Shown: one piece after another, positions 48,767 to 61,646 of the stretch
Layout of the letters: every line of letters begins with the position of its first letter
How positions within the stretch are numbered: the first letter of the stretch is position 1
Source of the DNA: an uncultured Acidobacteriota bacterium
Lineage (GTDB): Bacteria; Acidobacteriota; Vicinamibacteria; Marinacidobacterales; SMYC01
Length of the DNA: 64,000 bases
NCBI GenBank assembly: GCA_947259165.1
Contig: CAMYKY010000004.1
Span: 10,733 to 74,732 of the forward strand
Direction: 5' to 3'
Position numbers and translations under genes: made by a program
The notes under the pieces: generated by a model
Told to the model about the DNA's origin: nothing
The model's database searches: none
The model's input: the letters and a program-made list of their open reading frames with translations, nothing else

Positions 48767-50740
48767 ATGCCCAAAGCCGAGATTCCCAGCAAAGTCGGTA
48801 AATACGATGTTCGCGGCCTCGTGGGTCGCGGCGCGATGGGTGTTGTCTATAGCGCGGTCGATCCGGCGCTCGGCCGGTCTGTCGCCATCAAGACGATGTC
48901 GATCGCGGAGTCCCCGAACGAGGCCGAGCTGCGTCTGCGCTTCCTGAGGGAAGCTCAAGCAGCGGGTCAGCTCCAGCACCCCAACATCATCACCGTGCAC
49001 GAGCTCTTCGAAGAGGGTGACACCGCGTACCTGGTGATGGAGCTGCTCGAGGGCGCGGCGCTCTCGTCAATCCTGAAGCGGAAGAAAAGCCTCTCTCTCG
49101 GCCAGAAACTGTCGATTATCGATCAAATTGCAACAGGACTCTCCGAAGCCCACGCCCACAAAATCGTTCATCGCGACCTGAAACCCTCGAACGTTTTCGT
49201 CCTCAGAAGCGGCGTCGTCAAAGTGCTCGATTTCGGTGTGGCCAAGGTCGGCGAAGGAGAGCTCACCAAGGCGGGTACCGTGTTTGGTACCGTCGAGTAC
49301 ATGGCGCCGGAGCAGGTGCGCGGGCAAGTGGTCACGCCCCAGGCGGACATTTTCTCGCTCGGCGTCGTCGCGTACGAGGTTCTCGCTGGAAGGAATCCGT
49401 TTCGCGCCGACACGCTCGCGGCATCGGTTTTCAAAATCGTCTCCGACGATCCCGGCAAGCTCAGCGACGAGATGGAAGTACCAGCGGAGATCGAAGCCCT
49501 CGTCGACAAGGCCCTGGCCAAGCAGATGAGAGAGCGTTTTGTCTCGCTCGCCGAGTTCCGAACGGCGCTCGCGGCGGCGATGGCGAACGCCAACCTACCG
49601 CTGGCCGCGCCGGAGCTCAGCGAGGAGGACGTCGTCATCACAAAAGATCGCGGCGACTCGCTCGCGATGTCGGTCGAGCCCCGCGTATCTCAGTGGTCGA
49701 ACGTCGCGGCGCAGGCGGACCTTCTGGAGGAGGTTTACCGCCGGGGTGTCGAGTCCTTTAATGAAGGAAACTTCGAGGACTGCGTCTTGAAGATGAGCCA
49801 GGTGCTCGATGAGGTTCCCGTGCACGCGATGTCGCTGCACTACCTGGCCACGAGCGAGGGGAAGCTCCGCCAAAAACGATTGAGTGAAGACGCAAGACGG
49901 CGCGCTTCGGCTTACTTGTCAGCGATGCGAGATGCGCACAGGCGCGGCGACTCGGTGTTGGTCACCGACCAAGCAAACGAGCTCCTCGCGGTCGATCCCG
50001 AATCACTCGAGGCGCGATGGTATCGTCGCAACGCCGAGGCGCGCCTGCGTGCATCCTCCGTCGGAGGCCGTACCCATTCAACATCTACGGCGACCACAGG
50101 CGATGGCGGGCGCACGGCGTCCAGGTCGCGGGACGGGTCATTGGCTCACCCGGGCGGCAGCTTTGGTTATGCGCCTTCGACCCGCGAGGGACAATTCGGC
50201 TCCGGCCGCACGTTCCCAGGCGCTGACGGCGCCCCAAGTGCCATGGCCTCCCGAGACACGCGCTCCGGAGGCGCCAAAGGGGTCTGGTTTCTCGGCGGCG
50301 TCGCGCTCTTGTTCGTCGCGCTCGTCGGCATGTGGCTCGGAAGCTTGGGCGAGCCGAAGCCCGCGGTGTCCGCGGATCCCATCCAGCTCCCGGGCGTCCG
50401 GAACTCTCCGTTCAACGATCTGGACGACGACGAGACCGTCGTCCTCCGTTTGCCGACACGAGAGCCGGCATTCACGCTCAGCTATGTCATCCCGACGTCG
50501 GTCGTCGCGGGAGAATCCACGACGATCGGTCTGTTCGGACGCGACTTCCCGAGCGACGTGGTTGTGTCCATCGCCGACGAGTCCGTCTCGATCGTCTCGA
50601 CCACGGTGCATAGCGGAGATCACATCGAGCTCCAGCTCCTCGCGGCCGAGCCGCGCGAGTCCATCGAGATCCTGGTCGCCGCTACCGGCGGCTACCGAGC
50701 GAGCGTCCCAATCGAAGTCGAGCTCGCGAGCGAACCCTGA
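48767..50740 (+). CDS. Hanks-type Ser/Thr kinase with TPR-like region, TM segment and external Ig/IPT-like domain
   Basis: GRGAMG, VAIK, HRDLKPSN, DFG, YMAPE; TM segment near the C-terminus. Confidence 0.93.
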   Translation: MPKAEIPSKVGKYDVRGLVGRGAMGVVYSAVDPALGRSVAIKTMSIAESPNEAELRLRFLREAQAAGQLQHPNIITVHELFEEGDTAYLVMELLEGAALSSILKRKKSLSLGQKLSIIDQIATGLSEAHAHKIVHRDLKPSNVFVLRSGVVKVLDFGVAKVGEGELTKAGTVFGTVEYMAPEQVRGQVVTPQADIFSLGVVAYEVLAGRNPFRADTLAASVFKIVSDDPGKLSDEMEVPAEIEALVDKALAKQMRERFVSLAEFRTALAAAMANANLPLAAPELSEEDVVITKDRGDSLAMSVEPRVSQWSNVAAQADLLEEVYRRGVESFNEGNFEDCVLKMSQVLDEVPVHAMSLHYLATSEGKLRQKRLSEDARRRASAYLSAMRDAHRRGDSVLVTDQANELLAVDPESLEARWYRRNAEARLRASSVGGRTHSTSTATTGDGGRTASRSRDGSLAHPGGSFGYAPSTREGQFGSGRTFPGADGAPSAMASRDTRSGGAKGVWFLGGVALLFVALVGMWLGSLGEPKPAVSADPIQLPGVRNSPFNDLDDDETVVLRLPTREPAFTLSYVIPTSVVAGESTTIGLFGRDFPSDVVVSIADESVSIVSTTVHSGDHIELQLLAAEPRESIEILVAATGGYRASVPIEVELASEP

Positions 50741-50843
50741 TGTACCAAATCGGCGCAGCCCTGGTGAGGGAGTTTCACCACGACGATATCGAAACCGGGA
50801 CCAACTATCTTGATTTCCCGCAGTTAAAGCGTGGCGTCACCCA

Positions 50844-50859
50844 TGGCACACTACTTGCT
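50844..50859 (+). promoter_or_regulatory. Sigma54 promoter upstream of wzc
   Basis: TGGCACACTACTTGCT is a near-perfect TGGCACG-N4-TTGCW match, followed by an AT-rich leader. Confidence 0.8.
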
Positions 50860-51020
50860 TTGAAACCTTAGCGAAGCCCCTTAAAATTCTCAAAAAATAA
50901 TCCATTCTTTTTTGAATCGTTTGGAGAACAAGAACTGCCAAAACCGACGCGATCGTCGGTAGCGAGAACGACCCAAACAACTTCTCAGAAACAGTAGATG
51001 GATCCGAAAACGAGCTGATC

Positions 51021-53312
51021 ATGTCGAACGCCAAGTGGCCACACGAAGCCCCGCCAAGGCCCGAGCCCGAAGCGGCCGACTTCTTTCCGCAGACCACCGA
51101 GACCCATCTCCGGGACTATTGGTACATCATCCTCAAGCGACGCTGGATGATTCTCGCTGTGGTTGTTTGCGTCGTCTCCTACTCGGCCGCTCGCGCTCTG
51201 ATGCGAAAGCCAGTCTACTCTGCGACCTCCGTGCTGCAGATCGATCGCGGAAAAATCAACCTCGTGCAAGACGTCATGACGCCCGACTACTGGACCGGTT
51301 ACAATGAGTTTTATCCGACCCAGCAGCGCGTTCTCCAAAGTCGGAACCTCGCCCGGCGTGTGGTTCGACAGCTTCGCTTGTGGGAGCATCCGTACTTCAC
51401 CGGCGGGCATCCGCTCGAAGCCGACGAGCAAACGCTCGAAAATCTCTCCGGCGCAGTCGTCGGGATGCTACAAATCGACCAGATCCGAAACACCCAGCTC
51501 ATGGAGCTGCGTTTCACCACGCTCGACCCACAGGTCTCCGCCGACCTGTCGAATGCGCTCGCACAACAATACATCGCCTTCAGTAGCGAGAGCGAGACGA
51601 CGCTGGCCCGGGACACGGCCGGATTCATCGGAGAGCAAGTCGAAAAGATTCAAAAAGAAATTCAGCAGCGGGAGAAACTTCTCCAGGAGTACAGCCAGCG
51701 CGAAGACTTGATGATGGTAAACGAAAAAGAGCTCAGCGTCATGCGCCAACTGGAAGAGCTCAATACCGCCTACACTCAAGCACGCGCGGCGCGAGCGAAC
51801 GCGGAAGCCAACTTCCGCAGTATCTCTGCCGACGCATCCGGTCTACCGGAAGTCCAGTCGAACCCTTCGATTGAAGATCTGCGTAGCGAACGAGAGCGCG
51901 CTCGAAGGAGCGTTGCGGATCTCAGCTCCAAGTTCAAAGACGACTGGCCCGAGCTCCGGCGTGCTCGCGAAACGCTAGCAGACATCGACCGGCGCTTGGT
52001 CCAAGAGCAGCGGACGGTCGCGAAGAAGCTCGTGGCCCAGTCCCAAGTCGAGTACCGGGCAGCGCTCGAACGAGAAACCCTCCTGCTCCAAGAAGTCGAG
52101 GCCCAGAAGCAGGAAGCCCAGGAGCTCACCGAGCTCACGTCGAACTATAACCAGATCAAGGCGGAGGTCGACAATCAACGCTCCATGCTCCAGCAGCTCT
52201 TGCGGCGCCGCACCGAGACGGGACTCTCCGCCGAGCTCGGCGAGCGCCAGCCCGTCAACGTACGCATCGTGGAGGCCGCTCTCGTACCGAGAGGAGCGAA
52301 TGGGCCTGGGCTCAAGAGAAACTTGTTCATGGGGGCGTTGATAGGTATCGGACTGGCTCTAGGCGCAGCTTTTTTTCTCGACTACTGGGAAACCGCCATT
52401 TACACGATCGAGGATTTGAGAAGGCACGTGCCGCTCCCCTACATGGGGATGGTGCCGCGTCTCGAGGCCGCGTCGTTTGCGCTCTGGGCGGGCAGCAGGG
52501 GGAAATTCCTAGCTTACGACCCTGGCGAGGCGGTCAGCCCGCGGCGGGGCAAGAGCATGAATCGAACCCGCTCGGCGCTCGCGCTCTCCCAAACGACGAA
52601 AGTCGCGTCGCGCGCCAAAGAAGACACCTCGATGATCGCCGAGCGCTTCAAATTCCTTCGTGGCTCCCTCCTGCTATCGACCCCCGGAGCGCCGCCGCGA
52701 ACCGTGCTCGTGACCGGACCCGACAAGAACGCCGGCAAGACGTTCGTCGCGTGCAATCTCGCGACGTCCCTCGCGGATCTCAACAAGAAAGTCCTTCTCA
52801 TCGACGCCGATCTGCGCAATCCCCAACTTCACAAGGTGTTCCGCTTCAAGAATCGAGTCGGGTTGTCGAACGTTCTCTCCGGTCAAACGACGATCGAGAA
52901 AGGCTGTATCGTCTCGACTCCCATCCCGAACCTCTATGTCTTGCTTGCGGGGCCCGCAAGCCCGACACCCGCCGAGCTTCTAGGCTCCTCCAAGATGGAA
53001 GAGACGATGGCGCAGTGCATGGAGCACTTCGACTATGTCCTGCTCGATTCGGCGCCGCTTCTCCCCGTATTCGACTCGCATTACTTGACGGTGCGCGCCG
53101 ACGCGAACTTGCTCGTAGTCCGAAGCGGCCACACGTCGCGACACGCGGTAACGCAGAGTTTGGATCTCATCGATCGCGTCGGCGGCCGTGTCACCGGCGT
53201 GGTTTTGAACGATGTCAATCTCGCTGACTACGCTCAAAACTACTACTACAGCTACCACAGCTACGAGTACGGCACCTATGCCGAAGACCCGGTAGAGCGA
53301 AGGGCGGGTTGA
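51021..53312 (+). CDS. wzc: Polysaccharide co-polymerase/BY-kinase (Wzc/GumC)
   Basis: HLRDYW.II.KRRW, periplasmic coiled coil, AGKT, IDADLR.P, LLDSAP, C-terminal Tyr cluster YYYSYHSYEYGTY. Confidence 0.95.
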   Translation: MSNAKWPHEAPPRPEPEAADFFPQTTETHLRDYWYIILKRRWMILAVVVCVVSYSAARALMRKPVYSATSVLQIDRGKINLVQDVMTPDYWTGYNEFYPTQQRVLQSRNLARRVVRQLRLWEHPYFTGGHPLEADEQTLENLSGAVVGMLQIDQIRNTQLMELRFTTLDPQVSADLSNALAQQYIAFSSESETTLARDTAGFIGEQVEKIQKEIQQREKLLQEYSQREDLMMVNEKELSVMRQLEELNTAYTQARAARANAEANFRSISADASGLPEVQSNPSIEDLRSERERARRSVADLSSKFKDDWPELRRARETLADIDRRLVQEQRTVAKKLVAQSQVEYRAALERETLLLQEVEAQKQEAQELTELTSNYNQIKAEVDNQRSMLQQLLRRRTETGLSAELGERQPVNVRIVEAALVPRGANGPGLKRNLFMGALIGIGLALGAAFFLDYWETAIYTIEDLRRHVPLPYMGMVPRLEAASFALWAGSRGKFLAYDPGEAVSPRRGKSMNRTRSALALSQTTKVASRAKEDTSMIAERFKFLRGSLLLSTPGAPPRTVLVTGPDKNAGKTFVACNLATSLADLNKKVLLIDADLRNPQLHKVFRFKNRVGLSNVLSGQTTIEKGCIVSTPIPNLYVLLAGPASPTPAELLGSSKMEETMAQCMEHFDYVLLDSAPLLPVFDSHYLTVRADANLLVVRSGHTSRHAVTQSLDLIDRVGGRVTGVVLNDVNLADYAQNYYYSYHSYEYGTYAEDPVERRAG

Positions 53313-54478
53313 TCCCCATTCCGGACGCCGCCGAAGGGCCCCCAAGCCCCGAGAACCTTGCTGCCCTCGACGATGTCGTAAAGACGTGCGGGAGCCGGAT
53401 CCGCTCCGGCAAAAGCTTCTTCGAAACCGCTGAATCCGAACGTCTGTCACCCCTCCTCTACCACGTGTTCGATCGTCTCGGTTGGCCCGACACCGTGTCC
53501 AAGGAAGAGCAGCACCACTTCCGGAAGGCTTATTACCTGAGTGCCGGCCAGAACGTCGAGCTGCTGGGTGCGCTATCCGAGGCGGCCCTCGCTCTGCGCG
53601 AACAGGATATCCCCTGTGTCGCGTTCAAGGGCGCCGCACTGGTGAAGCGAATCTACCCCAACGTCGCCGTGCGTCCCATGGGCGATGTCGACGTCTATGT
53701 ACCCCCTGCTAGCGCCGAGCACGCCGAGGCAGTGCTCTCCACGCTTGGCTATCGGCCCTTTTGTCCTGACATGACCCCGGGTCTGAGTCGACGCATTCGT
53801 CACGCGCGCCTGTACGTCGGTGGGACCCGGGAGACGACGAGCATCGACCTCCACTGGTCCTTGGTCGGACACAGCAACGATGCCCGATCTCCCGATCCAC
53901 ACTGGCTGCGCCGAAATATTGTCGCGCGCAATGGCGATCCTTGGATGCATTTTTCCGACACCGCGCACCTTCTCTACCTGAGCGCGCACATGAAGCTGCA
54001 ACACTACGACGAGGAGATTCCCCTGTTGTGGTGTCTCGACTTCTACCTCCTCGCGACTCGGGGGGACATCGCTTGGGACCAGCTCTTGAGCGATGCTCGC
54101 CGCTTTGGCTGGACCGACGCCGTGAGCGCCGTCGCATTCGATGTCCGAGAGCGTCTAGGCGTCGCGCTACCCGCACCCCTCGAGCGGATCGCTAGCGCTC
54201 CGAAAGCCCCGCTTCATCGTCACGGCGCGCGGAACGAGCCCGAGCGCGTCTTGAACGAGCTCCGAGCCCTGGGGTGGTCGGGTCGCCTCGCGCTTGTGAG
54301 AGCCTACGTCCTGCCGTCACCCACCTACATCCGCTTCCGCTACCAGACGCTGAGCTGTCCTCTCGGGTATGCCAAACGTTGGAGCACGATGCTCGCCCGG
54401 GCGGGCACTATTCTTCTGCGCGCACTGCGGCGCAAGCCCGGGACTCGCCCACTATTGACTTCGCGAGAAAATTGCTAG
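53309..54478 (+). CDS. Nucleotidyltransferase family protein (NTP_transf_5-like)
   Basis: FKGAAL..IYP..RPMGDVDV, IDLHW; TTGA overlap with wzc. Confidence 0.88.
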   Translation: MIPIPDAAEGPPSPENLAALDDVVKTCGSRIRSGKSFFETAESERLSPLLYHVFDRLGWPDTVSKEEQHHFRKAYYLSAGQNVELLGALSEAALALREQDIPCVAFKGAALVKRIYPNVAVRPMGDVDVYVPPASAEHAEAVLSTLGYRPFCPDMTPGLSRRIRHARLYVGGTRETTSIDLHWSLVGHSNDARSPDPHWLRRNIVARNGDPWMHFSDTAHLLYLSAHMKLQHYDEEIPLLWCLDFYLLATRGDIAWDQLLSDARRFGWTDAVSAVAFDVRERLGVALPAPLERIASAPKAPLHRHGARNEPERVLNELRALGWSGRLALVRAYVLPSPTYIRFRYQTLSCPLGYAKRWSTMLARAGTILLRALRRKPGTRPLLTSRENC

Positions 54479-54501
54479 GATCGTTTTGTCATCTAAAACC
54501 C

Positions 54502-55419
54502 ATGAGCACTGAGAGCCTTGGAGCGCGCTACCTCGCCCACCCAGATCGATTTCCCGAGTGGGGCGAGGGAGCGCCGTTCGGCCCGCGAGAGACCTCGATG
54601 ACCATCTGCGGTACGCGCGTTCGCATCTCGGGACTGAGCCACGAGCAAGACCGCGCGATTCACGCTTTGTGGCCTGACTTCGTGGGCGAGGACGTCGCTG
54701 AGCCAGCCGCTTTGAGCGTTTTTCGGACTCCTGAGTCGACATTCAAGAAACTGGATCGCTGGGTCTACGAGCTCGACTTCGACTACCAGCCAGGGTCCTT
54801 GCGCCTCGCCGGGCTCGATCTCATGGCGCGGGTCGACATGAGCTCACCGCTACGCGCCGCACTCTGGATCGCTACCGAGTCGCCCGACACCTTCCACGGT
54901 GCGTTTGAGAACTTTCTTCGTGTCGTCGTCGCGTATGCGGCGATGCATCGAGGCGGCGCCTTGGTGCACAGCGCTGCCGTCGTCGACGGTGACGACGCCT
55001 GGCTGTTCGTCGGCCACTCAGGCGCCGGCAAGTCGACGGTCTCCCAGCTAGGACTCGACTCGGGTCGGCGCGTGCTCAGCGACGACCTGAACCCGATTCT
55101 CCCACGCGAGGACAACGGGATCGACGTCGTCGGTAGCCCCTTCCTCGGCGATCTCGGCACACGCTCGCCCGCGCGCCATCGACTCTCGGCTATCTATCGC
55201 CTGGAACAAGGAACAGAGGATAGTCTCCGCCCCATGGGCGCCGCCGAAACGCTCGCGTGTCTGATGGCATGCGCACCTTACATCAACCGTGATCGGCACC
55301 GAGCCGATACGCTTTGTTCGAACCTATTGGAGATGGCACAACAGGTGCCTGCCAAGGTTTTGACCTTTCGTCGGGACGGAACGTTCTGGCCGCTTCTAGA
55401 GAGGACAGCGCTTGCCTGA
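54502..55419 (+). CDS. HPr kinase-like P-loop kinase (RiPP-associated type)
   Basis: VHSAAV..LFVGHSGAGKST..LSDD..SPF. Confidence 0.82.
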   Translation: MSTESLGARYLAHPDRFPEWGEGAPFGPRETSMTICGTRVRISGLSHEQDRAIHALWPDFVGEDVAEPAALSVFRTPESTFKKLDRWVYELDFDYQPGSLRLAGLDLMARVDMSSPLRAALWIATESPDTFHGAFENFLRVVVAYAAMHRGGALVHSAAVVDGDDAWLFVGHSGAGKSTVSQLGLDSGRRVLSDDLNPILPREDNGIDVVGSPFLGDLGTRSPARHRLSAIYRLEQGTEDSLRPMGAAETLACLMACAPYINRDRHRADTLCSNLLEMAQQVPAKVLTFRRDGTFWPLLERTALA

Positions 55420-55714
55420 TTTGAATCTCGTATTTAGACGTAAGGATGACATTCGCTACCGTGTCGTCGGAGACGAGGCCATCGTCGTTCGCCAGAACGC
55501 CGCGGAGGTTCTTGCGCTCAATGACGTTGGCGCGCGTGTTCTCGAGCTCATCGACGCCGACAAGACGCTCGCACAGGTGATCGCGACGATGTCGGGTGAG
55601 TACGACGTCCGCCCAGACGAGCTCGCGAACGATGTGCAACGTTTTGTTGCCGCTATCCGGGATGCCGGTATCGTCGTGGATGTCAGCGAGGAAGTCAGCG
55701 AAAAGGTCCGCTGA
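55412..55714 (+). CDS. PqqD-family RiPP recognition element
   Basis: YRVVGDEAIVV..LNDVGARVLELID....LAQVI..MSGEYDV....DVQRFV..I..AGIV. Confidence 0.92.
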   Translation: MPDLNLVFRRKDDIRYRVVGDEAIVVRQNAAEVLALNDVGARVLELIDADKTLAQVIATMSGEYDVRPDELANDVQRFVAAIRDAGIVVDVSEEVSEKVR

Positions 55715-55719
55715 AAATC

Positions 55720-56820
55720 GTGCGTACCAAGAGAGAGCGTAAGGTTTCGAGCTCCCAAAGCCTGGAGCCGAGCTACGACGAGACCATCCTCGGGACGTGG
55801 GAGAACCATCACCTGTTCTCCGCTCTCGTGGAGTTGACCTATCGATGCAACCTCGATTGCTACTTTTGTTACAACGATCTCGATCTCGCCGGAGACCCCC
55901 TGCGTCTCGCCGACTACGAGCGTCTGTTCGAAGAAATGCGCACGCTCGGTTGCCTGCATTTGACGTTGTCCGGCGGCGAACCGCTCGCCCATCCAGATTT
56001 TTTCGCCATCGGAGCCAAAGCGCGCGAGCTCGACTTCGTAGTCCGAGTGAAAACTAACGGGCATGGGCTCGATCGTGAGCTCGCGGGCAGACTCCGAAGC
56101 GAAGTCGACCCGTTCATCGTCGAAGTCAGCCTGCACGGCGCTTGCGCTGAAACCCACGATCGACAAACGCGCGTTGCCGGAAGCTTCGATCGGCTCGTGC
56201 ACAACCTGGACGTGATGCGAGCGACGGGCCTGCGCGTCAAAATCAACACCGCGCTGACCCGTTGGAACGAGCGCGAGATCGAAGGTATGTTCGCGATTGC
56301 AGACCGCTTTGCCGTACCGCTCACCCTCGATCCTGAGGTCACGCCGCGTGACAACGGAGACCGGGACCCGATGCGCATCAGCGCGTCACCGGAGGGATTG
56401 CGCCATCTCGTCGCGGTACAGGCGAGTCGGCGCAAGGGGACACAAGCCGAGGTCCTGCGAGAAGGCGACGCTGAGATTCACAGCCGGGATCCCGACAGGC
56501 ACTGTGGCGCGGGCGCGTCGGGCATCGCGATCGATCCTTATGGCAATGTCTACCCGTGCGTTCAATGGCGACGGGCCATCGGAAACGTCCACGGAAGCTC
56601 GCTCCAGGGGATCTGGCGCGCGAATGGAAAACTCGATGAAATCCGGCGACTCACCGTCGAAGCCAAAGGAGTCGTGAGCGGCCACGACTCCGAAGTCCCA
56701 CTCGTCGGATTCTGTCCCGGTGTCGCCGAGATGTTGACGGGCGATCCTCTGGCCGTTCCCGAGAGTACATCAACCCGCGCCAACGTCCTGTCGGAGTTGC
56801 CGCTCCACCCCGTCCAATAA
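55720..56820 (+). CDS. Radical SAM protein with SPASM/Twitch extension (PqqE-like)
   Basis: ELTYRCNLDCYFC, SGGEPL, TNG, VSLHG, CGAG..IDPYGNVYPC, FCPG. Confidence 0.93.
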   Translation: MRTKRERKVSSSQSLEPSYDETILGTWENHHLFSALVELTYRCNLDCYFCYNDLDLAGDPLRLADYERLFEEMRTLGCLHLTLSGGEPLAHPDFFAIGAKARELDFVVRVKTNGHGLDRELAGRLRSEVDPFIVEVSLHGACAETHDRQTRVAGSFDRLVHNLDVMRATGLRVKINTALTRWNEREIEGMFAIADRFAVPLTLDPEVTPRDNGDRDPMRISASPEGLRHLVAVQASRRKGTQAEVLREGDAEIHSRDPDRHCGAGASGIAIDPYGNVYPCVQWRRAIGNVHGSSLQGIWRANGKLDEIRRLTVEAKGVVSGHDSEVPLVGFCPGVAEMLTGDPLAVPESTSTRANVLSELPLHPVQ

Positions 56821-56823
56821 AAC

Positions 56824-57017
56824 TCACCACGGAGTCACGCAGGGTTCGAGAGGACCGCAGGGCGTTCGGTTATCGGTTCTGTGCTGCTAGCGCCTGGTAG
56901 TCATTCTCTTCGGCAACAACCTCTGTGAACGCTGGCGCCATGATGCCGGTTTCGAGATCCCGGGCGTTTCCAAAGATAGGGTCTCGTTTCTCCGTGAGAG
57001 CCGTGCCTCCGTGGTGA
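56824..57017. repeat. Intergenic element with 16-bp imperfect terminal inverted repeats
   Basis: tcaccacggagtcacg vs cgtgcctccgtggtga (15/16 match). Confidence 0.7.
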
Positions 57018-57045
57018 AAACCTTCGAAAGCGCGCAGAAGGTAGT

Positions 57046-57222
57046 TCAGGAGCGCTGGGCGAGCGGGCAGGTGCCGACGTTTGCCTTGGCGGGCGGGCGC
57101 GGGGTGCACAGCGCGGCCATAGCTTCGAGCGGCTCGCGGTAGAGGATCTCGGGCCGGCGATATTTCTTCTTGGTGGATGCGGGTCCGTTGGCGGAGGCTC
57201 GTTTCTTTTCGTCGTGTTTCAT
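57046..57222 (-). CDS. Putative RiPP precursor peptide (58 aa)
   Basis: MKHDEKKRASANGPASTKKKYRRPEILYREPLEAMAALCTPRPPAKANVGTCPLAQRS. YxxPxI leader, two Cys, adjacent to RRE and rSAM genes. Alternative GTG start at 57231. Confidence 0.75.
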   Translation of the reverse strand: MKHDEKKRASANGPASTKKKYRRPEILYREPLEAMAALCTPRPPAKANVGTCPLAQRS

Positions 57223-57354
57223 GGGTGTCACTACTATGTTAGCAGAGTTGGAGTTCGGTCTGCAGATTCTGAATCCGGAGCGAACGGCGTCGCGCCCGCG
57301 AGTGTGTCCGGTCCCAACAAGCCGCTGCGTCGTCGCGCCTCTATCCCCCTCTCC

Positions 57355-58638
57355 CTAGGGTCTCAGGATTAGGTTGAAGTTGGCGACCACGCGGCCTTTA
57401 TCGAACGCGACGACGTTCGAGCGACGATCGAAGTACTGAGTAGTCACGCCCACGAACCAGGATCTTTGGATGTTGTACTCGAACGACAACTGCAACGACA
57501 GATGCTCGTCCACGATCTCTTCCTCAACGATCTCGCCGTCGACGTCTTGCGTGATCCTCGGTCGGGGATAGTTGTTGTCACCGACAATCGCTCCTGGCTC
57601 GATCGAAAATCTCTCGTGGAGCTGCCATCTAAAGAAAGCTCCGACGCGATTCTGAACGAAGTACCAGTTGTCAGTGAGGATCGACGGCACGACATCGCGC
57701 TCATAGACGCCGCGTAGCCGATGCCGGCTGGCGGAAGTCAGCCGAACGTCGGCGGCACCGATGGGCCCGGTATAACCGAACCGAGAGTCCGCAACGGGCA
57801 CGAGCTTTCGAAAGCCAACCATCACTCGTCCGGTAATACCGGTCTCGTTCGTCGACGGAACCAGCGCCCGGGGCGACTTGGGCGAAAAATCGAACCCCGC
57901 TCGTGCACCGTACGACTCGTTGTCTCTGATGTCATCGTCAAAAGCTTGCGTTTCGAAAAAGCCCTCGACTATGGCTCGCGTCTTCGAAGTGACTTGCCGA
58001 GCGAAGTCCACCGAGATCGAGTCCTGGACGTTGTTGAGCCGCGACGGAATGGTCGGGTCCTCGAGCGTCTGGTCCCGAATTTCGGTTTTGTACTGATGGT
58101 ATCGAGCCCGAAGCTCATGCCGCCAACCCAGCGCCATGGTCAACGATGTTTCGAAATGATTCGTCCGGGTCTCGACAGGAAAATCGAACTCGCTGGTCGG
58201 ACGCTGGGTCTCGTCGCGAAACTCGTCGTCGACTGCAAGAAGGAATCGCCGACTACCCCATCCACCTCCGACACGCGTGATGTTGAAGACTTGTCGCAGC
58301 GCGACTTGCTCGCGGTAGTAGACAAAATCGACTTCTTGATACACGTCGAAAAATGCCCGGGAACCTAAGGGCAGACGGAGCTGAATCCCCGGACCGAACA
58401 TCGCGCTGATGTCCTGCTGTGGATCCGGCGTCGACAACGTGTTTGAGTCATATCCAGTCGAGAATCGAACGACCGGCGTTGCATAAAACGGCCCGAGCTC
58501 GAAGAGTCCGTCGCGGACGCCGTCGAGCTCGTTTTCGATCAAGTTCACAGACTGGGAGCTAGCAGAGGCGGACGCGAGCAACGCAACCGCAACCGACGTC
58601 AGGACAGTGCCGACACGGCCAGAGAAGGAAATCATCAT
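57355..58638 (-). CDS. Outer-membrane beta-barrel of EPS loci (BBP2/DUF2320-like)
   Basis: Signal peptide; GYDSN motif; alternating beta strands; C-terminal YFDRRSN..FDK. Confidence 0.75.
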   Translation of the reverse strand: MMISFSGRVGTVLTSVAVALLASASASSQSVNLIENELDGVRDGLFELGPFYATPVVRFSTGYDSNTLSTPDPQQDISAMFGPGIQLRLPLGSRAFFDVYQEVDFVYYREQVALRQVFNITRVGGGWGSRRFLLAVDDEFRDETQRPTSEFDFPVETRTNHFETSLTMALGWRHELRARYHQYKTEIRDQTLEDPTIPSRLNNVQDSISVDFARQVTSKTRAIVEGFFETQAFDDDIRDNESYGARAGFDFSPKSPRALVPSTNETGITGRVMVGFRKLVPVADSRFGYTGPIGAADVRLTSASRHRLRGVYERDVVPSILTDNWYFVQNRVGAFFRWQLHERFSIEPGAIVGDNNYPRPRITQDVDGEIVEEEIVDEHLSLQLSFEYNIQRSWFVGVTTQYFDRRSNVVAFDKGRVVANFNLILRP

Positions 58639-59807
58639 GCGGCTCCTAGAATGCGACCCACGGCCCCATGCCGAAACACCGCATCGATCAACCCCCGGTG
58701 CCAGTCGAAATTTGCCTTTTCTTGAATGATTCTCATGACGGTCTCACGCCGGGCGAGCGACATCAGCCGCTCGATGCCCCAATCATTCATGAGTTTGAAG
58801 CTCCGTCTGAGTTTCAGCCCGGTCTCGATCTCTCGCTGAAGCAACGCGCGCCAACGGTGCTCATAGGCGCTTAGCGCAGCAGCGTCCAGGTGATCCGAAG
58901 CAAGGGACGAGTCCAGGGTTTCCGCCGCGAGCTCGGCAGTTCGCATCCCGTAGTAGATGCCGCCGCACGTAGTGGTCTTGATATGACCCGCGGCTTCCCC
59001 CACGACCAGGATCCGGTCGCCAAAACTCTGACGGAGAAACCCGAGCGGAAGCACGCTACATTGAATCGGCCCCGGCGCAGTTTCGGCCCGCGACGCGAGA
59101 TCAGAGCGCGCGAGAAAACGTCGTAGCGTGTTCGGCCCGTCCCGCCGACACAAAAGTCCAACCTTCGCACGGCCTTCCCCGAGAGGAACGACCCACGCGA
59201 AACCCTCGGGCGCCCATCTCTGGCCAAAGTACACCTCGACCTGCCGGGCTGAAAGCGCGAGCTCCGTCTGAACCCCTAGCAGGCGAGACGGCACGTCGTT
59301 GAATCCAAGGGTTCTTAGCAGCGGCATTCCGGCGCCGGTCGCGACAACGACCGCACGGCACCGCAGCGCCCGCTGGGAGGGCTCCTCGGACGCTGCGTCG
59401 GAGACTCTGACATTCACGCCACCGAAGACCGTTTCGACGGCCGTGGCGCGATGGCTCAACAACACGTGCGCTCCAGCCTCGCGCGCGCGTGCGCCGAGGT
59501 AACGGTCGAACTCCCCGCGCACGACGACATGGGCCAGCTCGTTTGCGGTCTCGAACTCCCAACGAAGCCCTCGCGGCGAAACGAACTCGAGATTCGATAG
59601 GCTATGCTGGATGAGATCGTTCGGCAAATGGAACCGCTCGAAGGCCTCGACACCAAGAACCCCGCTGCAATTCACCGGGGTTCCAATCTGCGCATGCTCC
59701 TCGAGCACCGCCACGTGCCATCCTCGTTCGGATAGACGCGTGGCTGCAGTCAGACCCGCAGGGCCAGCTCCCACGACGACGACGTCGTACTTCTCTTGAA
59801 CGGTCAG
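58635..59807 (-). CDS. Geranylgeranyl reductase-family FAD oxidoreductase
   Basis: YDVVVVGAGPAG, IG.PVNCSG, R..FD, FAWVVP, VGEAAG....TCGGIYYG. Start probably CTG overlapping the upstream stop. Confidence 0.85.
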   Translation of the reverse strand: MTVQEKYDVVVVGAGPAGLTAATRLSERGWHVAVLEEHAQIGTPVNCSGVLGVEAFERFHLPNDLIQHSLSNLEFVSPRGLRWEFETANELAHVVVRGEFDRYLGARAREAGAHVLLSHRATAVETVFGGVNVRVSDAASEEPSQRALRCRAVVVATGAGMPLLRTLGFNDVPSRLLGVQTELALSARQVEVYFGQRWAPEGFAWVVPLGEGRAKVGLLCRRDGPNTLRRFLARSDLASRAETAPGPIQCSVLPLGFLRQSFGDRILVVGEAAGHIKTTTCGGIYYGMRTAELAAETLDSSLASDHLDAAALSAYEHRWRALLQREIETGLKLRRSFKLMNDWGIERLMSLARRETVMRIIQEKANFDWHRGLIDAVFRHGAVGRILGAA

Positions 59808-60450
59808 AGCTTCTTCTCCCTTATCTCCCACTTGCCTCGGAACGTGATCCAAAACGAGAGGGCGATCAGTTTGATGTCTAGCCAGAAAGATTGATTTTCG
59901 ACGTAGAGTCGATCGTAGCGAAATTTATGTCGCCGCGGCAGGTCGCGCGGCGCATAAATCTGGGCGATACCGGTCAGACCGGGAGTGACGCTATGGCGCA
60001 TCGCGAAACCCGGGATGGTCGAAAGTGCAACCGGCGCGCCCGACGCTCCCACTTCCACTTCAGCGCTCGCGAGGGCGCGCGGGCCGACGAACGACATGTC
60101 ACCCCGAAAGATGTTCCACAGCTGTGGCAGCTCGTCCATGGCGGTGCCACGCAAAAGTCGACCGACGGGTGTAATTCTCGGATCCCGTTCGCTCGCCTGC
60201 ACGGCTCCGAACCGTTTGTCGGCGTCGGGAACCATCGAGCGAAACTTGAGACCGCGGAAAGTTCTTCCGCCTTTGCCAACCCGATCCTGGCTAAAGAACA
60301 CCGGGCCGCCGTCCGACAATTTCACCGCAGCCGCGATGAGACTCGCAAGGGGCAAAGCAACGACGAGCCCAATGCCCGACAGCATCACGTCAAGACCTCG
60401 CTTCGCAAGAGGCCCGACGATGTTGCCGCTCGTGAGAACCGACGTCGGTA
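59804..60450 (-). CDS. Priming phosphoglycosyltransferase (Bac_transf, small monotopic PGT)
   Basis: KRGLD, GPVFFSQDRVG, KFRSM, DPRIT, DELPQLWNI.RGDMSFVGPR, PGLTG.AQ. Start coordinate approximate. Confidence 0.9.
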
Positions 60451-61646
60451 TCGAGTGGCTCTCCCTTGAAGAGCTCTCCGTAGGCACGGACTTGTTTTCT
60501 GCGATCGAATCGAACACCGGCTCGTCGAGCATTCTGACCGAGTCTCTCGGCGAGCTCTCGATCGCGGTAAAAGCGCGTGATCTCATGAACCAACCCTCCC
60601 ACATCACCCGGGGTAATGACCGAGCCGCAATCGTACTCGGTAGTGATCGCCGCAACTTCTGTCTTCGCCTCCACCGCGGCGACATAGGGACGCCCCGCGG
60701 CCAGAATTCCATAGAGCTTGCTAGGGACGATGTAGCCCGCCAACCCGGGCTTTAGCGAAACGATAAAAACGTCAGCGGTGGCATACGAGTCCCGCAAGCT
60801 CTCACGAGGCTGATACGGCAAAAAGACGACATTGTCGAGCTCCCGGCGCGCGACCTCGCTCTGAAGGGCCTCGCGACGAACCCCGTCACCGACAATCAGA
60901 AAGACCACATCGCGCTCGCTCACGATTATAGAAGCGGCCTCGATCAAACAATCTAGATTCTGGGACAGGCCAATATTGCCGGAATGCATGACGACGAATT
61001 TGTCGGCGAGCCCATGGGCCCGGGAGAACTCGTTGTCTTTCGGTGCCGGTGAAATCGCCTCGGTATCCGCCCAGTTGTGAATCACCGAAACTTTGGACGG
61101 ATCCGCATTTTTTCCCTCGACGAGACGACCCTTCATCGTGTCACCGAGGGCAACGATTCGATCGGCACGCTTGACCAGAAAACAGTTCACCTGTTGCAAG
61201 ATGGCGTTGACGGTCTCGCTACGGAAATCCTCGAGGAGAGTCGCGACTTCCGGGAAGATGTCCTGGCACAAGAAGACGAATCGTGCGCCCATGCGCTTGG
61301 ACGTCATCCATGCTACCAGGCCGATGATTGGGGGATCGGTCAGTGCCACGACGATGTCCGCACGTGGTAAACGCAGCGACACCCAAAAAGCCACGAGAAA
61401 ATAGGTGACATAGTTCGCAAACCGTCCCAAAAAACCGCGTCGGGCGAGTCGCGTGCCGCGGGCGCGAACGATTCTCACGCCTTCGTGGGTGATGGCGTCC
61501 GGCTTCGAGCCGTCCGGCGAAGGCCCGGAGACCACCGTGACGTCGAAGCCGTGCTCTCGCACCAGATCCTGGGTGAGCTCGGTCAGTAGCTGGCCGGTCG
61601 CACCGGTGTCAGGGTAGTAAGAGCGATTAAAGAATACGATCCGCAT
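60390..61646 (-). CDS. GT4 glycosyltransferase (WbuB/WcaI-like)
   Basis: NRSYYPD, QDIFPE, HNWAD, HSGNIG.SQ, VPSKLYG. Confidence 0.92.
   Translation of the reverse strand: MRIVFFNRSYYPDTGATGQLLTELTQDLVREHGFDVTVVSGPSPDGSKPDAITHEGVRIVRARGTRLARRGFLGRFANYVTYFLVAFWVSLRLPRADIVVALTDPPIIGLVAWMTSKRMGARFVFLCQDIFPEVATLLEDFRSETVNAILQQVNCFLVKRADRIVALGDTMKGRLVEGKNADPSKVSVIHNWADTEAISPAPKDNEFSRAHGLADKFVVMHSGNIGLSQNLDCLIEAASIIVSERDVVFLIVGDGVRREALQSEVARRELDNVVFLPYQPRESLRDSYATADVFIVSLKPGLAGYIVPSKLYGILAAGRPYVAAVEAKTEVAAITTEYDCGSVITPGDVGGLVHEITRFYRDRELAERLGQNARRAGVRFDRRKQVRAYGELFKGEPLDTDVGSHERQHRRASCEARS

What the first reader, a model, noticed from the sequence alone, without database searches (positions are those of the whole stretch)
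53309..57231. Candidate undescribed RiPP system (rSAM + RRE + kinase + nucleotidyltransferase + precursor) embedded in an exopolysaccharide locus
Seen: wzc overlaps (TTGA) an NTP_transf_5-like gene, followed closely by an HPr-kinase-like gene, a stand-alone PqqD/RRE and a radical SAM/Twitch enzyme. A 58-aa peptide gene converges on them at the end of the opposite-strand EPS gene run. Known: RRE + SPASM/Twitch enzymes mature peptides. HPr-like kinases and NTP_transf_5 proteins occur in paeninodin/pseudomycoidin-type lasso clusters, and a kinase-like + RRE + rSAM set occurs in the SynChlorMet cassette. Not seen: lasso cyclase, lasso peptidase, any other protease or an ABC exporter next to these genes. 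Inference: a non-lasso, rSAM-crosslinked peptide class that uses lasso-type phospho/nucleotidyl tailoring and is tied to capsule/EPS biogenesis.
Basis: partly seen in the sequence, partly recalled or inferred. Interest (0 to 1): 0.92.

Follow-up and report, generated by a model that had tools for sequence, protein, structure and literature searches.

The report
Peptide-maturation cassette inside polysaccharide locus
A small, strongly conserved peptide gene sits beside radical-SAM, peptide-chaperone and kinase genes inside sugar-coat gene clusters of uncultured Acidobacteria, which points to an undescribed modified peptide tied to the cell surface.

Summary
The window encodes wzc, an NTP_transf_5 protein, an HPr-kinase-like P-loop protein, a stand-alone PqqD/RRE and a radical SAM enzyme. 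That enzyme has a reduced, three-Cys (twitch-like) C-terminal domain. A 58-aa gene converges on this run.

The peptide is a real gene family.
- It has 477 clusters at 50% identity.
- Nucleotide changes fall mainly on third codon positions.
- It was found in 38 of 401 sampled Acidobacteriota genomes.
- Shared features are a lasso-like YxxPxI...REPLEAMAA leader, exactly two Cys, a Lys between them, and a C-terminal Ser.

The rSAM gene lies beside the peptide gene in 35 of 38 loci with enough flank. The three exceptions carry the cassette elsewhere in the genome.

- In 30 of 44 loci the peptide gene directly follows a giant secreted PorU-like Peptidase_C25 protein.
- A small signal-peptidase-like protein usually sits beside the kinase.
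- NTP_transf_5 and wzc adjacency are lineage-specific.

No curated family reaches its cut-off, and six literature searches found no description. I read this as an undescribed RiPP-type family. Its chemistry (thioether crosslinking, phosphorylation of the C-terminal Ser) is inferred and untested.

The parts
48767..50740 (+). Ser/Thr protein kinase. It is the first gene of the plus-strand run and is syntenic with wzc in the window's family. It counts as context, not a proven part.
   Evidence: Pkinase E 7.7e-55. The order STK-wzc-NTase-kinase-PqqD-rSAM recurs in L025-L028, L030, L031 and L033.
51021..53312 (+). Wzc-type chain-length determinant / tyrosine autokinase
   Evidence: Wzz 6e-8 and AAA_31 5.7e-13. 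TIGR01007 scores 158.8 bits, above its cut-off of 108.
53309..54478 (+). NTP_transf_5 family protein (putative nucleotidyl/glycosyl-phosphate transferase). It is an accessory part specific to some lineages.
   Evidence: PF14907 E 1.5e-47. TTGA overlap with wzc. Found in 12 of 28 loci with at least 6 kb of flank.
54502..55419 (+). HPr-kinase-like P-loop protein (the ORF opens at 54274; the likely start is ATG 54502)
   Evidence: ScmC 1.7e-7 and HprK_rel_A 5e-4, both below cut-off. hhalign to an HprK_rel_A-like family gives 96.1%, E 3.2e-9. Invariant H156, S173-G-x-G-K177-x-T179 and S193-D194.
55412..55714 (+). Stand-alone PqqD-family RiPP recognition element
   Evidence: PF05402 E 3.3e-14. Beside the rSAM gene in 30 of 33 loci with at least 3 kb of flank.
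55720..56820 (+). Radical SAM enzyme with a reduced SPASM/twitch C-terminal domain
   Evidence: Radical_SAM 3.1e-19 and SPASM 2e-7. C43/C47/C50 and C332 are invariant, and C262/C280 near-invariant, in 35 orthologues. All NCBIfam hits are below cut-off; the best is MftC at 105 bits against 265.
57046..57222 (-). 58-aa precursor peptide gene (stop codon at 57046-57048). It has a variable N-terminus, a YRRPEILYREPLEAMAA leader, and the core LCTPRPPAKANVGTCPLAQRS.
57355..58638 (-). BBP2_2 beta-barrel outer-membrane protein. It is the gene directly upstream of the peptide on the same strand.
   Evidence: PF10082 E 1.3e-5, 24.7 bits against a cut-off of 23.7. It holds the same position in 7 of 44 loci.
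58635..59852 (-). Geranylgeranyl-reductase-family FAD enzyme (EPS operon context)
   Evidence: TIGR02032 scores 190 bits, above its cut-off of 158.8.
59804..60712 (-). Bac_transf initiating sugar-phosphate transferase (EPS operon context that recurs with the peptide)
   Evidence: PF02397 E 1.1e-58. Same-strand Bac_transf lies within 6.5 kb of the peptide in 18 of 29 loci.

Best explanation
This is a ribosomal peptide (RiPP-type) maturation system of a family not yet described. The 58-aa product is the substrate.

Proposed steps:
1. The leader (YxxPxI..REPLEAMAA) is held by the stand-alone PqqD protein.
2. The radical SAM enzyme carries one three-Cys auxiliary cluster site. It modifies the core between or at the two invariant Cys, most likely by forming thioether crosslinks. 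The core has the form C-x7-19-C with an invariant Lys in the loop.
3. The HPr-kinase-like protein phosphorylates the invariant C-terminal Ser.
4. In the window's lineage, the NTP_transf_5 protein then extends that phosphate with a sugar or nucleotide.
5. In most relatives a small archaeal-type signal-peptidase-like protein beside the kinase would remove the leader after the Ala-x-Ala. The window lacks this gene at the locus.

The core is conserved across phyla, and no exporter or immunity gene lies at the locus. The peptide gene is also co-transcribed with polysaccharide genes or with a secreted PorU-like C25 protein. So I think the product serves the producer's own envelope or EPS biology rather than acting as a weapon.

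Shown: gene content, family membership of each protein, conservation, and co-occurrence. Inferred: every chemical step and the biological role.
For: Real coding gene:
- 50 of 50 candidate homologues have E <= 0.01, and all are unnamed.
- 477 clusters at 50% identity reach E <= 1e-3.
- Over 26 codons against 12 relatives, differences at codon positions 1/2/3 are 49/36/143, and changed codons are 110 synonymous to 56 non-synonymous.

Partnership with the cassette:
- rSAM lies next to the peptide in 35 of 38 loci with at least 1.5 kb of flank. Kinase and PqqD are there in 30 of 33 with at least 3 kb.
- The 3 exceptions (L067, L076, L079) have kinase-PqqD-rSAM elsewhere in the same genome.
- Among 61 relatives, the rSAM orthologue was found in 12 and the peptide in 11, with both in 10.

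Substrate-like anatomy in 200 members:
- 194 end in Ser.
- 169 of the 172 that matched my strict leader pattern have exactly two Cys.
- 168 of those 169 have Lys in the loop.
- The tail after Cys2 is 5-8 residues.
- 47 of 48 peptides read from loci end in Ser; the other is cut by a contig end.

Leader and kinase precedent:
- The leader motif resembles the lasso YxxPxL motif. That motif matters for RRE-dependent phosphorylation and leader removal (passages read in PMC10368454).
- HPrK homologues of lasso clusters phosphorylate the C-terminal Ser of the precursor, and the nucleotidyltransferase adds hexoses to that phosphate (passages read in PMC8498205).
- The kinase's catalytic motifs are invariant.

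rSAM:
- The CxxxCxxC motif plus three conserved C-terminal Cys match the three-Cys AuxI pattern of a thioether-forming enzyme (passage in PMC13692751).
- The profile finds PqqE, SkfB, CteB and BtrN among solved structures.

Tight operon: the four genes have 24-nt, -8-nt and 5-nt junctions.
Against: - There are no biochemical data and no expression data.
- The kinase assignment rests on sub-threshold hits and motifs. The profile search of solved structures gave only P-loop-level matches, with HPrK at E 0.081.
- The peptide gene is convergent with the enzymes in most loci. That is unusual for RiPP clusters.
- The core is conserved much more strongly than in typical RiPPs.
- G018 keeps wzc-NTase-kinase-PqqD-rSAM, yet no peptide was found in its 10-Mb single contig, even at E <= 5.
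- The window's locus has no leader peptidase or exporter.
- The BsfK kinase of Bradymonas phosphorylates Ser3, not the C-terminal Ser, so the site cannot be assumed.
- The best full-length rSAM similarity is to MftC and PqqE, which do not make thioethers.
Confidence: 0.6

Rival explanations
1. The peptide is the precursor of a small redox cofactor or prosthetic group, in the manner of PQQ or mycofactocin. On this reading rSAM and PqqD crosslink or trim it, and an enzyme of the polysaccharide pathway uses the product inside the cell.
For: - The best full-length rSAM similarities are to MftC (105 bits, residues 37-350) and PqqE (PDB 6c8v, E 3.7e-21 over 19-338).
- The core is conserved across phyla, as in PqqA and MftA.
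- The genome has a single copy.
- No exporter or immunity gene lies at the locus.
- An FAD enzyme shares the peptide's operon in the window's family.
Against: - All cofactor-family models fall far below cut-off.
- The conserved residues are Cys, Lys and a C-terminal Ser, not the Glu/Tyr or Val-Tyr of the known cofactors.
- The enzyme lacks the second auxiliary cluster Cys set of PqqE and MftC.
- The tightest neighbour in 30 of 44 loci is a secreted C25 protein, which points outside the cell.
- This model gives the kinase no role.
Confidence: 0.13
2. It is a secreted antimicrobial sactipeptide or ranthipeptide (a bacteriocin) that only happens to sit beside EPS genes.
For: The combination of rSAM/twitch, RRE and a Cys-containing core is the standard architecture. 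Sub-threshold similarity to StsB, AlbA, PapB and SkfB is present.
Against: - The core is nearly invariant from Acidobacteriota to Proteobacteria and Myxococcota.
- No transporter, immunity gene or bacteriocin-type peptidase lies at the locus.
- The neighbourhood with Bac_transf, C25, porin and Wzy_C recurs in different arrangements, which argues against chance placement.
Confidence: 0.12
3. It is a divergent lasso peptide system of the phosphorylated (paeninodin/pseudomycoidin) type.
For: - The leader is YxxPxI, and a PqqD, an HPrK-like kinase and an NTP_transf_5 are present.
- Four related loci (L041, L052, L054, L067) also carry a lasso B2 homologue. In L054 it scores 66.5 bits on NF033537 against a cut-off of 33.
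Against: - No lasso B2 was found in the window's genome, which is 84% complete.
- The only Asn-synthase homologue on the contig is AsnB-type. It scores 423 bits on TIGR01536 (above cut-off) and 237 bits on the lasso cyclase model against a cut-off of 525.
- No cyclase was seen in L054 either.
- The window's core has no Asp/Glu.
- 106 of 169 family cores lack any Asp/Glu from Cys1 onward.
Confidence: 0.03
4. The small protein is not modified at all. It would be a regulator, inhibitor or chaperone of the C25 protease or of EPS assembly, and the rSAM/PqqD/kinase genes act on another substrate.
For: - The peptide gene is convergent with the enzymes in most loci.
- It is translationally close to C25, with gaps of -4 to 300 nt.
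- One database ORF fuses C25 and the peptide (P0083).
- G018 keeps the enzymes without the peptide.
- A Cys-bounded Pro-rich loop with an invariant Lys resembles a canonical protease-inhibitor loop. This last point is my recollection, not a test.
Against: - PqqD-family proteins are peptide-leader binders.
- The peptide has a leader-like conserved block.
- Genome-level co-occurrence with the cassette held in all 3 of 3 apparent exceptions.
- In the window's family the peptide persists without an adjacent C25 but with the cassette.
Confidence: 0.1

Closest known systems
Phosphorylated / phosphoglycosylated lasso peptide clusters (paeninodin, pseudomycoidin, the Bradymonas bsf cluster)
   Same: They share a stand-alone PqqD RRE, an HPr-kinase homologue, an NTP_transf-type gene, a YxxPx[LI] leader motif and a precursor ending in Ser (passages in PMC8498205 and PMC10368454).
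   Different: This system has no lasso cyclase, no B2 peptidase and no acidic acceptor in the core. A radical SAM enzyme takes the class-defining place. There is no ABC exporter, and the locus is a polysaccharide locus.
SynChlorMet (SCM) cassette of NCBIfam (ScmC kinase-like, ScmD PqqD-like, ScmE/ScmF rSAM-SPASM)
   Same: It has the same three-part logic: an HPrK-like protein, a PqqD and an rSAM. ScmC is the best named hit of the kinase.
   Different: All scores are far below the family cut-offs: ScmC 30.9 against 125, ScmD 25.2 against 100, ScmE 77.1 against 400. This system has one rSAM, not two. I could not read the paper that describes the SCM cassette; I know its make-up only from the model names.
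HPr-rel-A system of NCBIfam (HprK_rel_A, PqqD_rel_X, HprK_rel_B)
   Same: It pairs HPrK-like and PqqD-like genes. A closer HprK_rel_A-like gene (64 bits) sits a few genes away in four related loci, together with NTP_transf_5. That neighbour is homologous to the window's kinase by profile comparison.
   Different: Scores are below cut-off: 19.3 against 200 and 18.7 against 35. That system has no rSAM. Its link to exosortase loci is my recollection only, and no exosortase was found in this genome.
Thioether-forming rSAM maturases (sactipeptides, ranthipeptides, QhpD/QhpC)
   Same: They combine an rSAM, a Cys-rich C-terminal domain, an RRE-bound leader and Cys in the core. The three-Cys site resembles AuxI.
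   Different: This enzyme has only one auxiliary site and lacks the four AuxII Cys. No family model reaches its cut-off. The kinase/NTase tailoring and the EPS/C25 context are not known for those classes.
Mycofactocin and PQQ maturation (MftB/MftC, PqqD/PqqE)
   Same: These are the best full-length rSAM similarities. Both pair a discrete PqqD partner with a conserved small precursor.
   Different: Scores are below cut-off: 105 against 265 and 89 against 381. The precursor chemistry differs, this enzyme has fewer cluster Cys, and a kinase is present.
PorU, the C25-family sortase of type IX secretion
   Same: The giant protein encoded just before the peptide gene in 30 of 44 loci has a C-terminal Peptidase_C25 domain. 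Its best NCBIfam hit is PorU.
   Different: It scores 174 bits against a cut-off of 420. These proteins are 1,500-3,000 aa and carry DUF11-type repeats. The organisms are not Bacteroidota. In the window's genome the C25 genes lie on other contigs.

Membership tests
Lasso peptide system | Asn-synthase-like macrolactam cyclase (C) | tested here: not met
   The only homologue on the contig is about 25 kb from the peptide. It scores 423 bits on TIGR01536 AsnB (cut-off 267) and 237 bits on the lasso cyclase model NF033535 (cut-off 525).
Lasso peptide system | B2 transglutaminase-like leader peptidase | tested here: not met
   NF033537 was not found in the window's genome, which is 84% complete; the control genome gave a hit.
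Lasso peptide system | Core with an Asp/Glu acceptor at position 7-9 | tested here: not met
   The window core LCTPRPPAKANVGTCPLAQRS has no D/E. 106 of 169 family cores have none from Cys1 onward.
Lasso peptide system | PqqD/B1 RRE and a YxxPxL leader | tested here: met
   PF05402 E 3.3e-14. Y21, P24 and I26 are invariant in 33 aligned members.
SynChlorMet cassette | ScmC, ScmD and ScmE/F equivalog scores above cut-off | tested here: not met
   30.9 against 125, 25.2 against 100, 77.1 against 400, 68.2 against 400.
HPr-rel-A system | HprK_rel_A and PqqD_rel_X above cut-off | tested here: not met
   19.3 against 200 and 18.7 against 35.
Mycofactocin system | MftC equivalog score; precursor ending in Val-Tyr | tested here: not met
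   105.2 against 265. The precursor ends in Ser.
PQQ system | PqqE and PqqD equivalog scores | tested here: not met
   89.2 against 381 and 37.7 against 46.
Sacti-/ranthipeptide (rSAM thioether RiPP) | rSAM CxxxCxxC plus a SPASM/twitch domain | tested here: met
   C43, C47 and C50 are invariant. SPASM PF13186 scores 31.6 bits against 21.5. Only three conserved C-terminal Cys are present (C262, C280, C332).
Sacti-/ranthipeptide (rSAM thioether RiPP) | Cys donors in the core of an adjacent precursor, with an RRE | tested here: met
   Exactly two Cys in 169 of 172 members. rSAM is adjacent in 35 of 38 loci. A stand-alone PqqD is present.
Sacti-/ranthipeptide (rSAM thioether RiPP) | A sulfur-to-carbon thioether in the product | not testable with these tools
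   This needs mass spectrometry or NMR of the modified peptide.
Sacti-/ranthipeptide (rSAM thioether RiPP) | Membership of a curated maturase family (StsB, AlbA, PapB, and others) | tested here: not met
   StsB 85.6 against 625 and AlbA 52.6 against 850. PapB scored 50.4 against 340 for the L054 orthologue.
HPr kinase/phosphorylase superfamily (kinase-like protein) | P-loop GxSGxGKS and a downstream DD motif on an HPrK-like fold | tested here: inconclusive
   The motifs are invariant, and hhalign to an HprK_rel_A-like family gives 96.1%. However, Pfam and PDB profile hits are only P-loop-level, with HPrK at E 0.081. The fold could not be predicted.

The most novel reading that the evidence does not exclude
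The peptide may be a covalent adaptor of the cell envelope rather than a free natural product.

On this reading, crosslinking in the cytoplasm comes first. The peptide is then phospho-glycosylated on its C-terminal Ser by the kinase and NTP_transf_5, and so becomes joined to, or primes, the polysaccharide made by the neighbouring Bac_transf pathway. Outside the cell, the PorU-like C25 protein encoded just upstream uses the invariant loop Lys. The Lys would serve either as a cleavage site or as the amine acceptor of a sortase-like transpeptidation that ties surface proteins to the EPS.

This would be a peptide-mediated protein-polysaccharide linkage system outside Bacteroidota.
Probability: 0.08. 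Interest if true: 0.92.

Novelty: new variant of a known kind. Interest (0 to 1): 0.68.

Why it matters
If the reading is right, this would be a new RiPP family with three unusual traits.
- Its core is conserved across phyla.
- It pairs a minimal twitch-type radical SAM enzyme with the kinase (and sometimes nucleotidyltransferase) tailoring known so far only from lasso peptides.
- It is wired into polysaccharide loci and into PorU-like C25 proteins of Acidobacteriota, an abundant and mostly uncultured soil and sediment phylum.

It offers a defined, small and testable substrate for an orphan rSAM clade and for the poorly understood HPrK-like/PqqD gene sets seen in EPS loci. It could also reveal a role for modified peptides in biofilm or envelope assembly rather than in antagonism.

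Tried and rejected
Peptide and locus checks that led nowhere:
- The 79-aa ORF at 56870-57109 (-), which overlaps the peptide's 3' end, had no tblastn match in any of 11 related loci. I treat it as spurious.
- Rfam found no RNA family at 50000-59000.
- The promoter/terminator scan of 56600-57500 gave no promoter-like site and four weak terminator-like sites. I drew no conclusion from it.
- No exosortase was found in the genome, so this is not a PEP-CTERM system.

Expression:
- No RNA holder was listed for 53309-58638. Only three DNA runs with small word shares appeared. I did not lay reads.

Structure:
- The profile search of solved structures with the kinase alignment gave P-loop matches only.
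- Structure prediction of the kinase was not accepted in three tries.
- Complex prediction of PqqD with the peptide was not available, so there is no verdict on binding.

Other look-ups:
- The ESM Atlas held neither the peptide nor homologue P0026.
- Public names for the peptide and rSAM clusters are only 'hypothetical protein' and 'MoaA/NifB/PqqE/SkfB family radical SAM enzyme'.

Literature:
- Six full-text searches found no description of this peptide family or gene set. They were. The terms covered HPr kinase/PqqD/radical SAM/nucleotidyltransferase, SynChlorMet and HprK-related names, RiPP+RRE, peptide motif strings, EPS/PEP-CTERM, and Acidobacteria+SPASM.
- The library lacks most subscription journals. 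The Haft & Basu 2011 paper (PMC3133131) was not held.
- Supplements were closed. The supplementary figures of PMC10368454 on Acidobacteriaceae precursors may bear on the lasso comparison.

My own method:
- My first greedy ORF caller picked antisense ORFs and dropped overlapping genes. I replaced it with HMM searches of six-frame translations.

Unpublished genomes:
- The 61-genome tallies include G027, which has no orthologue and no peptide.
- The 401-genome tally includes G209, which is one of the 38 positives.
- No other claim rests on either genome.

Full report
**What is in the window.** Between 48.7 kb and the window end lie two converging gene runs.

The plus-strand run holds six genes.
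- A Ser/Thr kinase, 48767-50740.
- A Wzc-type chain-length/tyrosine-kinase protein, 51021-53312.
- An NTP_transf_5 protein, 53309-54478 (PF14907, E 1.5e-47).
- A P-loop protein whose only named relatives are HPr-kinase-like families. The ORF opens at 54274; the likely ATG is at 54502. Hits are ScmC 1.7e-7, HprK_rel_A 5e-4 and PEPCK_ATP 7e-4, all below cut-off.
- A stand-alone PqqD, 55412-55714 (E 3.3e-14).
- A radical SAM enzyme with a SPASM-type hit, 55720-56820.

The junctions are tight. There is a TTGA overlap at 53309-53312, a 24-nt gap, an 8-nt overlap and a 5-nt gap.

The minus-strand run consists of carbamoyltransferase, epimerase, GT1, Bac_transf, a geranylgeranyl-reductase-family FAD enzyme and a BBP2_2 outer-membrane barrel. 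It ends in a 58-aa ORF at 57222-57046. Past the window the same contig continues with GT2, methyltransferase, GT1, epimerase and Wzm/Wzt genes.

**The peptide is a real and widespread gene.**
- A word-indexed search returned 50 of 50 candidates at E <= 0.01. None has a Pfam domain, and the only names are 'hypothetical protein'.
- A full HMM scan of 1.84 billion representatives gave 477 clusters at E <= 1e-3 and 51 at E <= 1e-10.
- Over a 26-codon block, 12 relatives differ from the window at codon positions 1/2/3 by 49/36/143 bases. Changed codons are 110 synonymous to 56 non-synonymous. That is the signature of a translated gene.
- The family has a variable, charged N-terminus followed by [KR]xYxxPx[IV]xxREPLEAMAA. 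Next come a Cys, a Pro-rich loop with a Lys, a second Cys and a short tail ending in Ser.
- I examined 200 members, and 172 matched my strict leader pattern. Of those 172, 166 end in Ser, 3 in Thr, 2 in Arg and 1 in Gly. 169 have exactly two Cys.
- Of those 169, 168 have Lys inside the loop. The loop is 7-19 residues with a mode of 12. The tail after Cys2 is 5-8 residues.
- The 28 members that missed the pattern also end in Ser and show the two Cys and the Lys.
- Of 48 peptides read directly from loci, 47 end in Ser and one is cut by a contig end.

**The peptide and the enzymes belong together.** A pattern scan of one genome per species found 44 loci, all in MAGs. By record title, 38 are Acidobacteriota (Thermoanaerobaculia, Holophagales, 'Marinacidobacterales'), 5 Proteobacteria and 1 Sandaracinaceae. 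HMMs built from the locus genes and run on six-frame translations gave the following.
- rSAM lies next to the peptide in 35 of 38 loci with at least 1.5 kb of downstream flank.
- Kinase and PqqD are there in 30 of 33 loci with at least 3 kb.
- A small S24/S26-like protein is there in 22 of 30 loci with at least 4 kb.
- NTP_transf_5 is there in 12 of 28 loci with at least 6 kb.
- One or the other of the last two is there in 26 of 28.

The three loci without a nearby cassette (L067, L076, L079) come from genomes that carry kinase-PqqD-rSAM elsewhere. One of these sites holds a second C25-peptide pair.

Among 61 relatives of the window's genome, the rSAM orthologue was seen in 12, counting G000 and a contig-end fragment in G014. 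The peptide was seen in 11, and both in 10. G017 has the peptide at a contig end. G018 is a genuine exception. Its single 10-Mb contig keeps wzc-NTase-kinase-PqqD-rSAM, with the NTase in two frames. No peptide was found there even at E <= 5.

In an even sample of the phylum, the peptide was found in 38 of 401 genomes and in 25 of 228 genera.

- The gene directly upstream of the peptide on the same strand is a 1,300-3,100-aa secreted protein with a C-terminal Peptidase_C25 domain in 30 of 44 loci. It is Bac_transf in 6, the BBP2_2 barrel in 7 (the window's type) and the rSAM in 1.
- The C25 proteins hit NCBIfam's PorU sortase model best, at 174 bits, below the cut-off of 420. Gaps to the peptide gene run from -4 to 300 nt. 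One database ORF (P0083) reads through from C25 into the peptide.
- The window's genome has at least four such C25 genes on other contigs, none followed by a peptide.
- The small protein beside the kinase resembles archaeal-type signal peptidase I (TIGR02228, E 1e-6 to 4e-9, below cut-off; Pfam S24/S26 weak). In 28 aligned members the motifs G-x-[CS]-M-x-P, GD, HR..G and T.GD are conserved. The nucleophile position holds Cys in 21, Ser in 6, and is missing in 1.
- This signal-peptidase-like gene is absent from the window's locus. A copy sits next to a second NTP_transf_5 in a second EPS locus on contig C20, which has no peptide or rSAM.
- Four related loci carry a lasso-type B2 (L041, L052, L054, L067). 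Three of them (L041, L052, L054) also have a second PqqD and a second, HprK_rel_A-like kinase. The second kinase is also present in L060. No cyclase was seen.
- Ten loci have Wzy_C just beyond the cassette.

So the constant unit is peptide, rSAM, PqqD and kinase. NTP_transf_5, wzc, the porin, C25, the signal-peptidase-like protein and B2 are lineage-dependent company. All of them belong to envelope or polysaccharide biology.

**How it most likely works.** PqqD-family proteins bind RiPP leaders. The conserved YxxPxI block resembles the lasso YxxPxL motif. Passages I read in PMC10368454 say that motif matters for RRE-dependent phosphorylation and leader removal.

The rSAM enzyme keeps CxxxCxxC (C43/47/50) and only three further conserved Cys (C262, C280, C332). 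That is the count and spacing of the three-Cys AuxI site described for a thioether-forming SPASM enzyme (passage in PMC13692751). Profile hits among solved structures are PqqE, a cytosylglucuronate decarboxylase, SkfB, CteB and BtrN. With two invariant Cys in the core, thioether formation is the most economical guess. It remains a guess, because the closest full-length relatives (MftC, PqqE) do other chemistry.

The kinase-like protein keeps H156, the GxSGAGK[ST]T P-loop and LSDDxN in all 31 orthologues. It is homologous by profile to an HprK_rel_A-like family (96.1%, E 3.2e-9). Lasso-cluster HPrK homologues phosphorylate the precursor's C-terminal Ser, and the nucleotidyltransferase adds hexoses to that phosphate (passages in PMC8498205). 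The near-universal C-terminal Ser at a fixed distance from Cys2 fits this well. One lasso kinase does act on Ser3 instead.

Leader removal after the Ala-x-Ala by the signal-peptidase-like protein is my inference from family resemblance only.

**What it is for.** Four observations argue against a bacteriocin and for a role in the producer's own envelope.
- The core is conserved across phyla.
- The window's genome has a single copy.
- No exporter or immunity gene lies at the locus.
- The gene is always placed at the end of a polysaccharide or C25 operon.

I cannot say what that role is. The rival readings and the boldest reading are given with odds in their own sections. The rivals are a cofactor precursor, an unmodified regulator or inhibitor of the C25 protease, a bacteriocin, and a divergent lasso system. 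The boldest reading is a phospho-glycosylated peptide adaptor used by a PorU-like transpeptidase.

**Comparison with known systems and novelty.** Every curated family I tested fails on score or on a defining part. The families were lasso, SCM cassette, HPr-rel-A, mycofactocin, PQQ and the named sacti/ranthi maturases. The system works like an rSAM-RiPP pathway with lasso-type tailoring, but it is not a member of any of these. Public records name the proteins only generically. Six full-text searches found no description. The limits are that subscription journals and supplements were not searchable and one key paper was not held. I rate it a new variant of a known kind, namely a new RiPP family and context. 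Interest is 0.68.

**Limits.** All evidence is comparative. Expression is unknown, since no RNA holder was listed. Relatives are not independent, so the co-occurrence counts overstate statistical weight. All carriers found are MAGs.

Noticed in passing
G000 contig C20, about 50.4-65.5 kb (L089): The same genome has a second polysaccharide locus: BBP2_2 barrel fusion, Wza-like exporter, wzc, FHA, trypsin-like and FecR proteins. Next come an S24/S26-like small protein overlapping an NTP_transf_5 gene and a sigma-54 response regulator. No peptide, PqqD, kinase or rSAM is present there.
   Followed up: partly
L041-L078, beside the kinase (for example L052:12479-12871, -): These are small (about 130 aa) signal-peptidase-I-like proteins. 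The nucleophile Ser is replaced by Cys in 21 of 28, and His stands where S24/S26 enzymes have Lys (HR..G motif). This may be a Cys/His variant of the fold.
   Followed up: partly
L054:13296-17848 (-); also L041, L052, L060 and L067: This gene string holds NTP_transf_5, an HprK_rel_A-like kinase, a lasso B2 (above cut-off), a lasso-type PqqD and a 578-aa protein with no family hit. No lasso cyclase is present. It sits between the peptide cassette and a Wzy_C gene.
   Followed up: partly
G018 (L025:4336-10214): This is the closest complete relative. It keeps wzc-NTase-kinase-PqqD-rSAM, but the NTase reads in two frames and no peptide gene was found anywhere in the 10-Mb contig. The downstream genes differ. 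The cassette may be decaying or re-purposed.
   Followed up: partly
P0083 (714 aa): A database ORF reads from the end of a C25 protein straight into a full peptide sequence. It is either a natural fusion or a lost stop codon.
   Followed up: no
L061 and L062: There are two tandem C25 genes. The peptide follows the first, and the rSAM cassette follows the second, 5.4-5.8 kb from the peptide.
   Followed up: no
G065 contig C13, 56329-56487 and 61896-62048: One genome has two peptide copies 5.5 kb apart. G125, G149 and G386 also show two matches each.
   Followed up: no
window 58635-59852 (-): A geranylgeranyl-reductase-family FAD enzyme lies inside the EPS operon. It also shows sub-threshold similarity to QhpG (78 bits against 240).
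   Followed up: no
G000 contigs C6, C35, C46 and C107: The window's genome has four or more 1,600-2,200-aa Peptidase_C25 proteins. The best orthologue of the peptide-linked type (C46) sits beside MoxR-type AAA, M50 and M55 peptidase genes.
   Followed up: partly
window 48767-50740 (+): A Ser/Thr kinase with a long C-terminal extension heads the wzc run in every locus of the window's family. A 36%-identical kinase also lies upstream of the cassette in the Sandaracinaceae locus L075.
   Followed up: no
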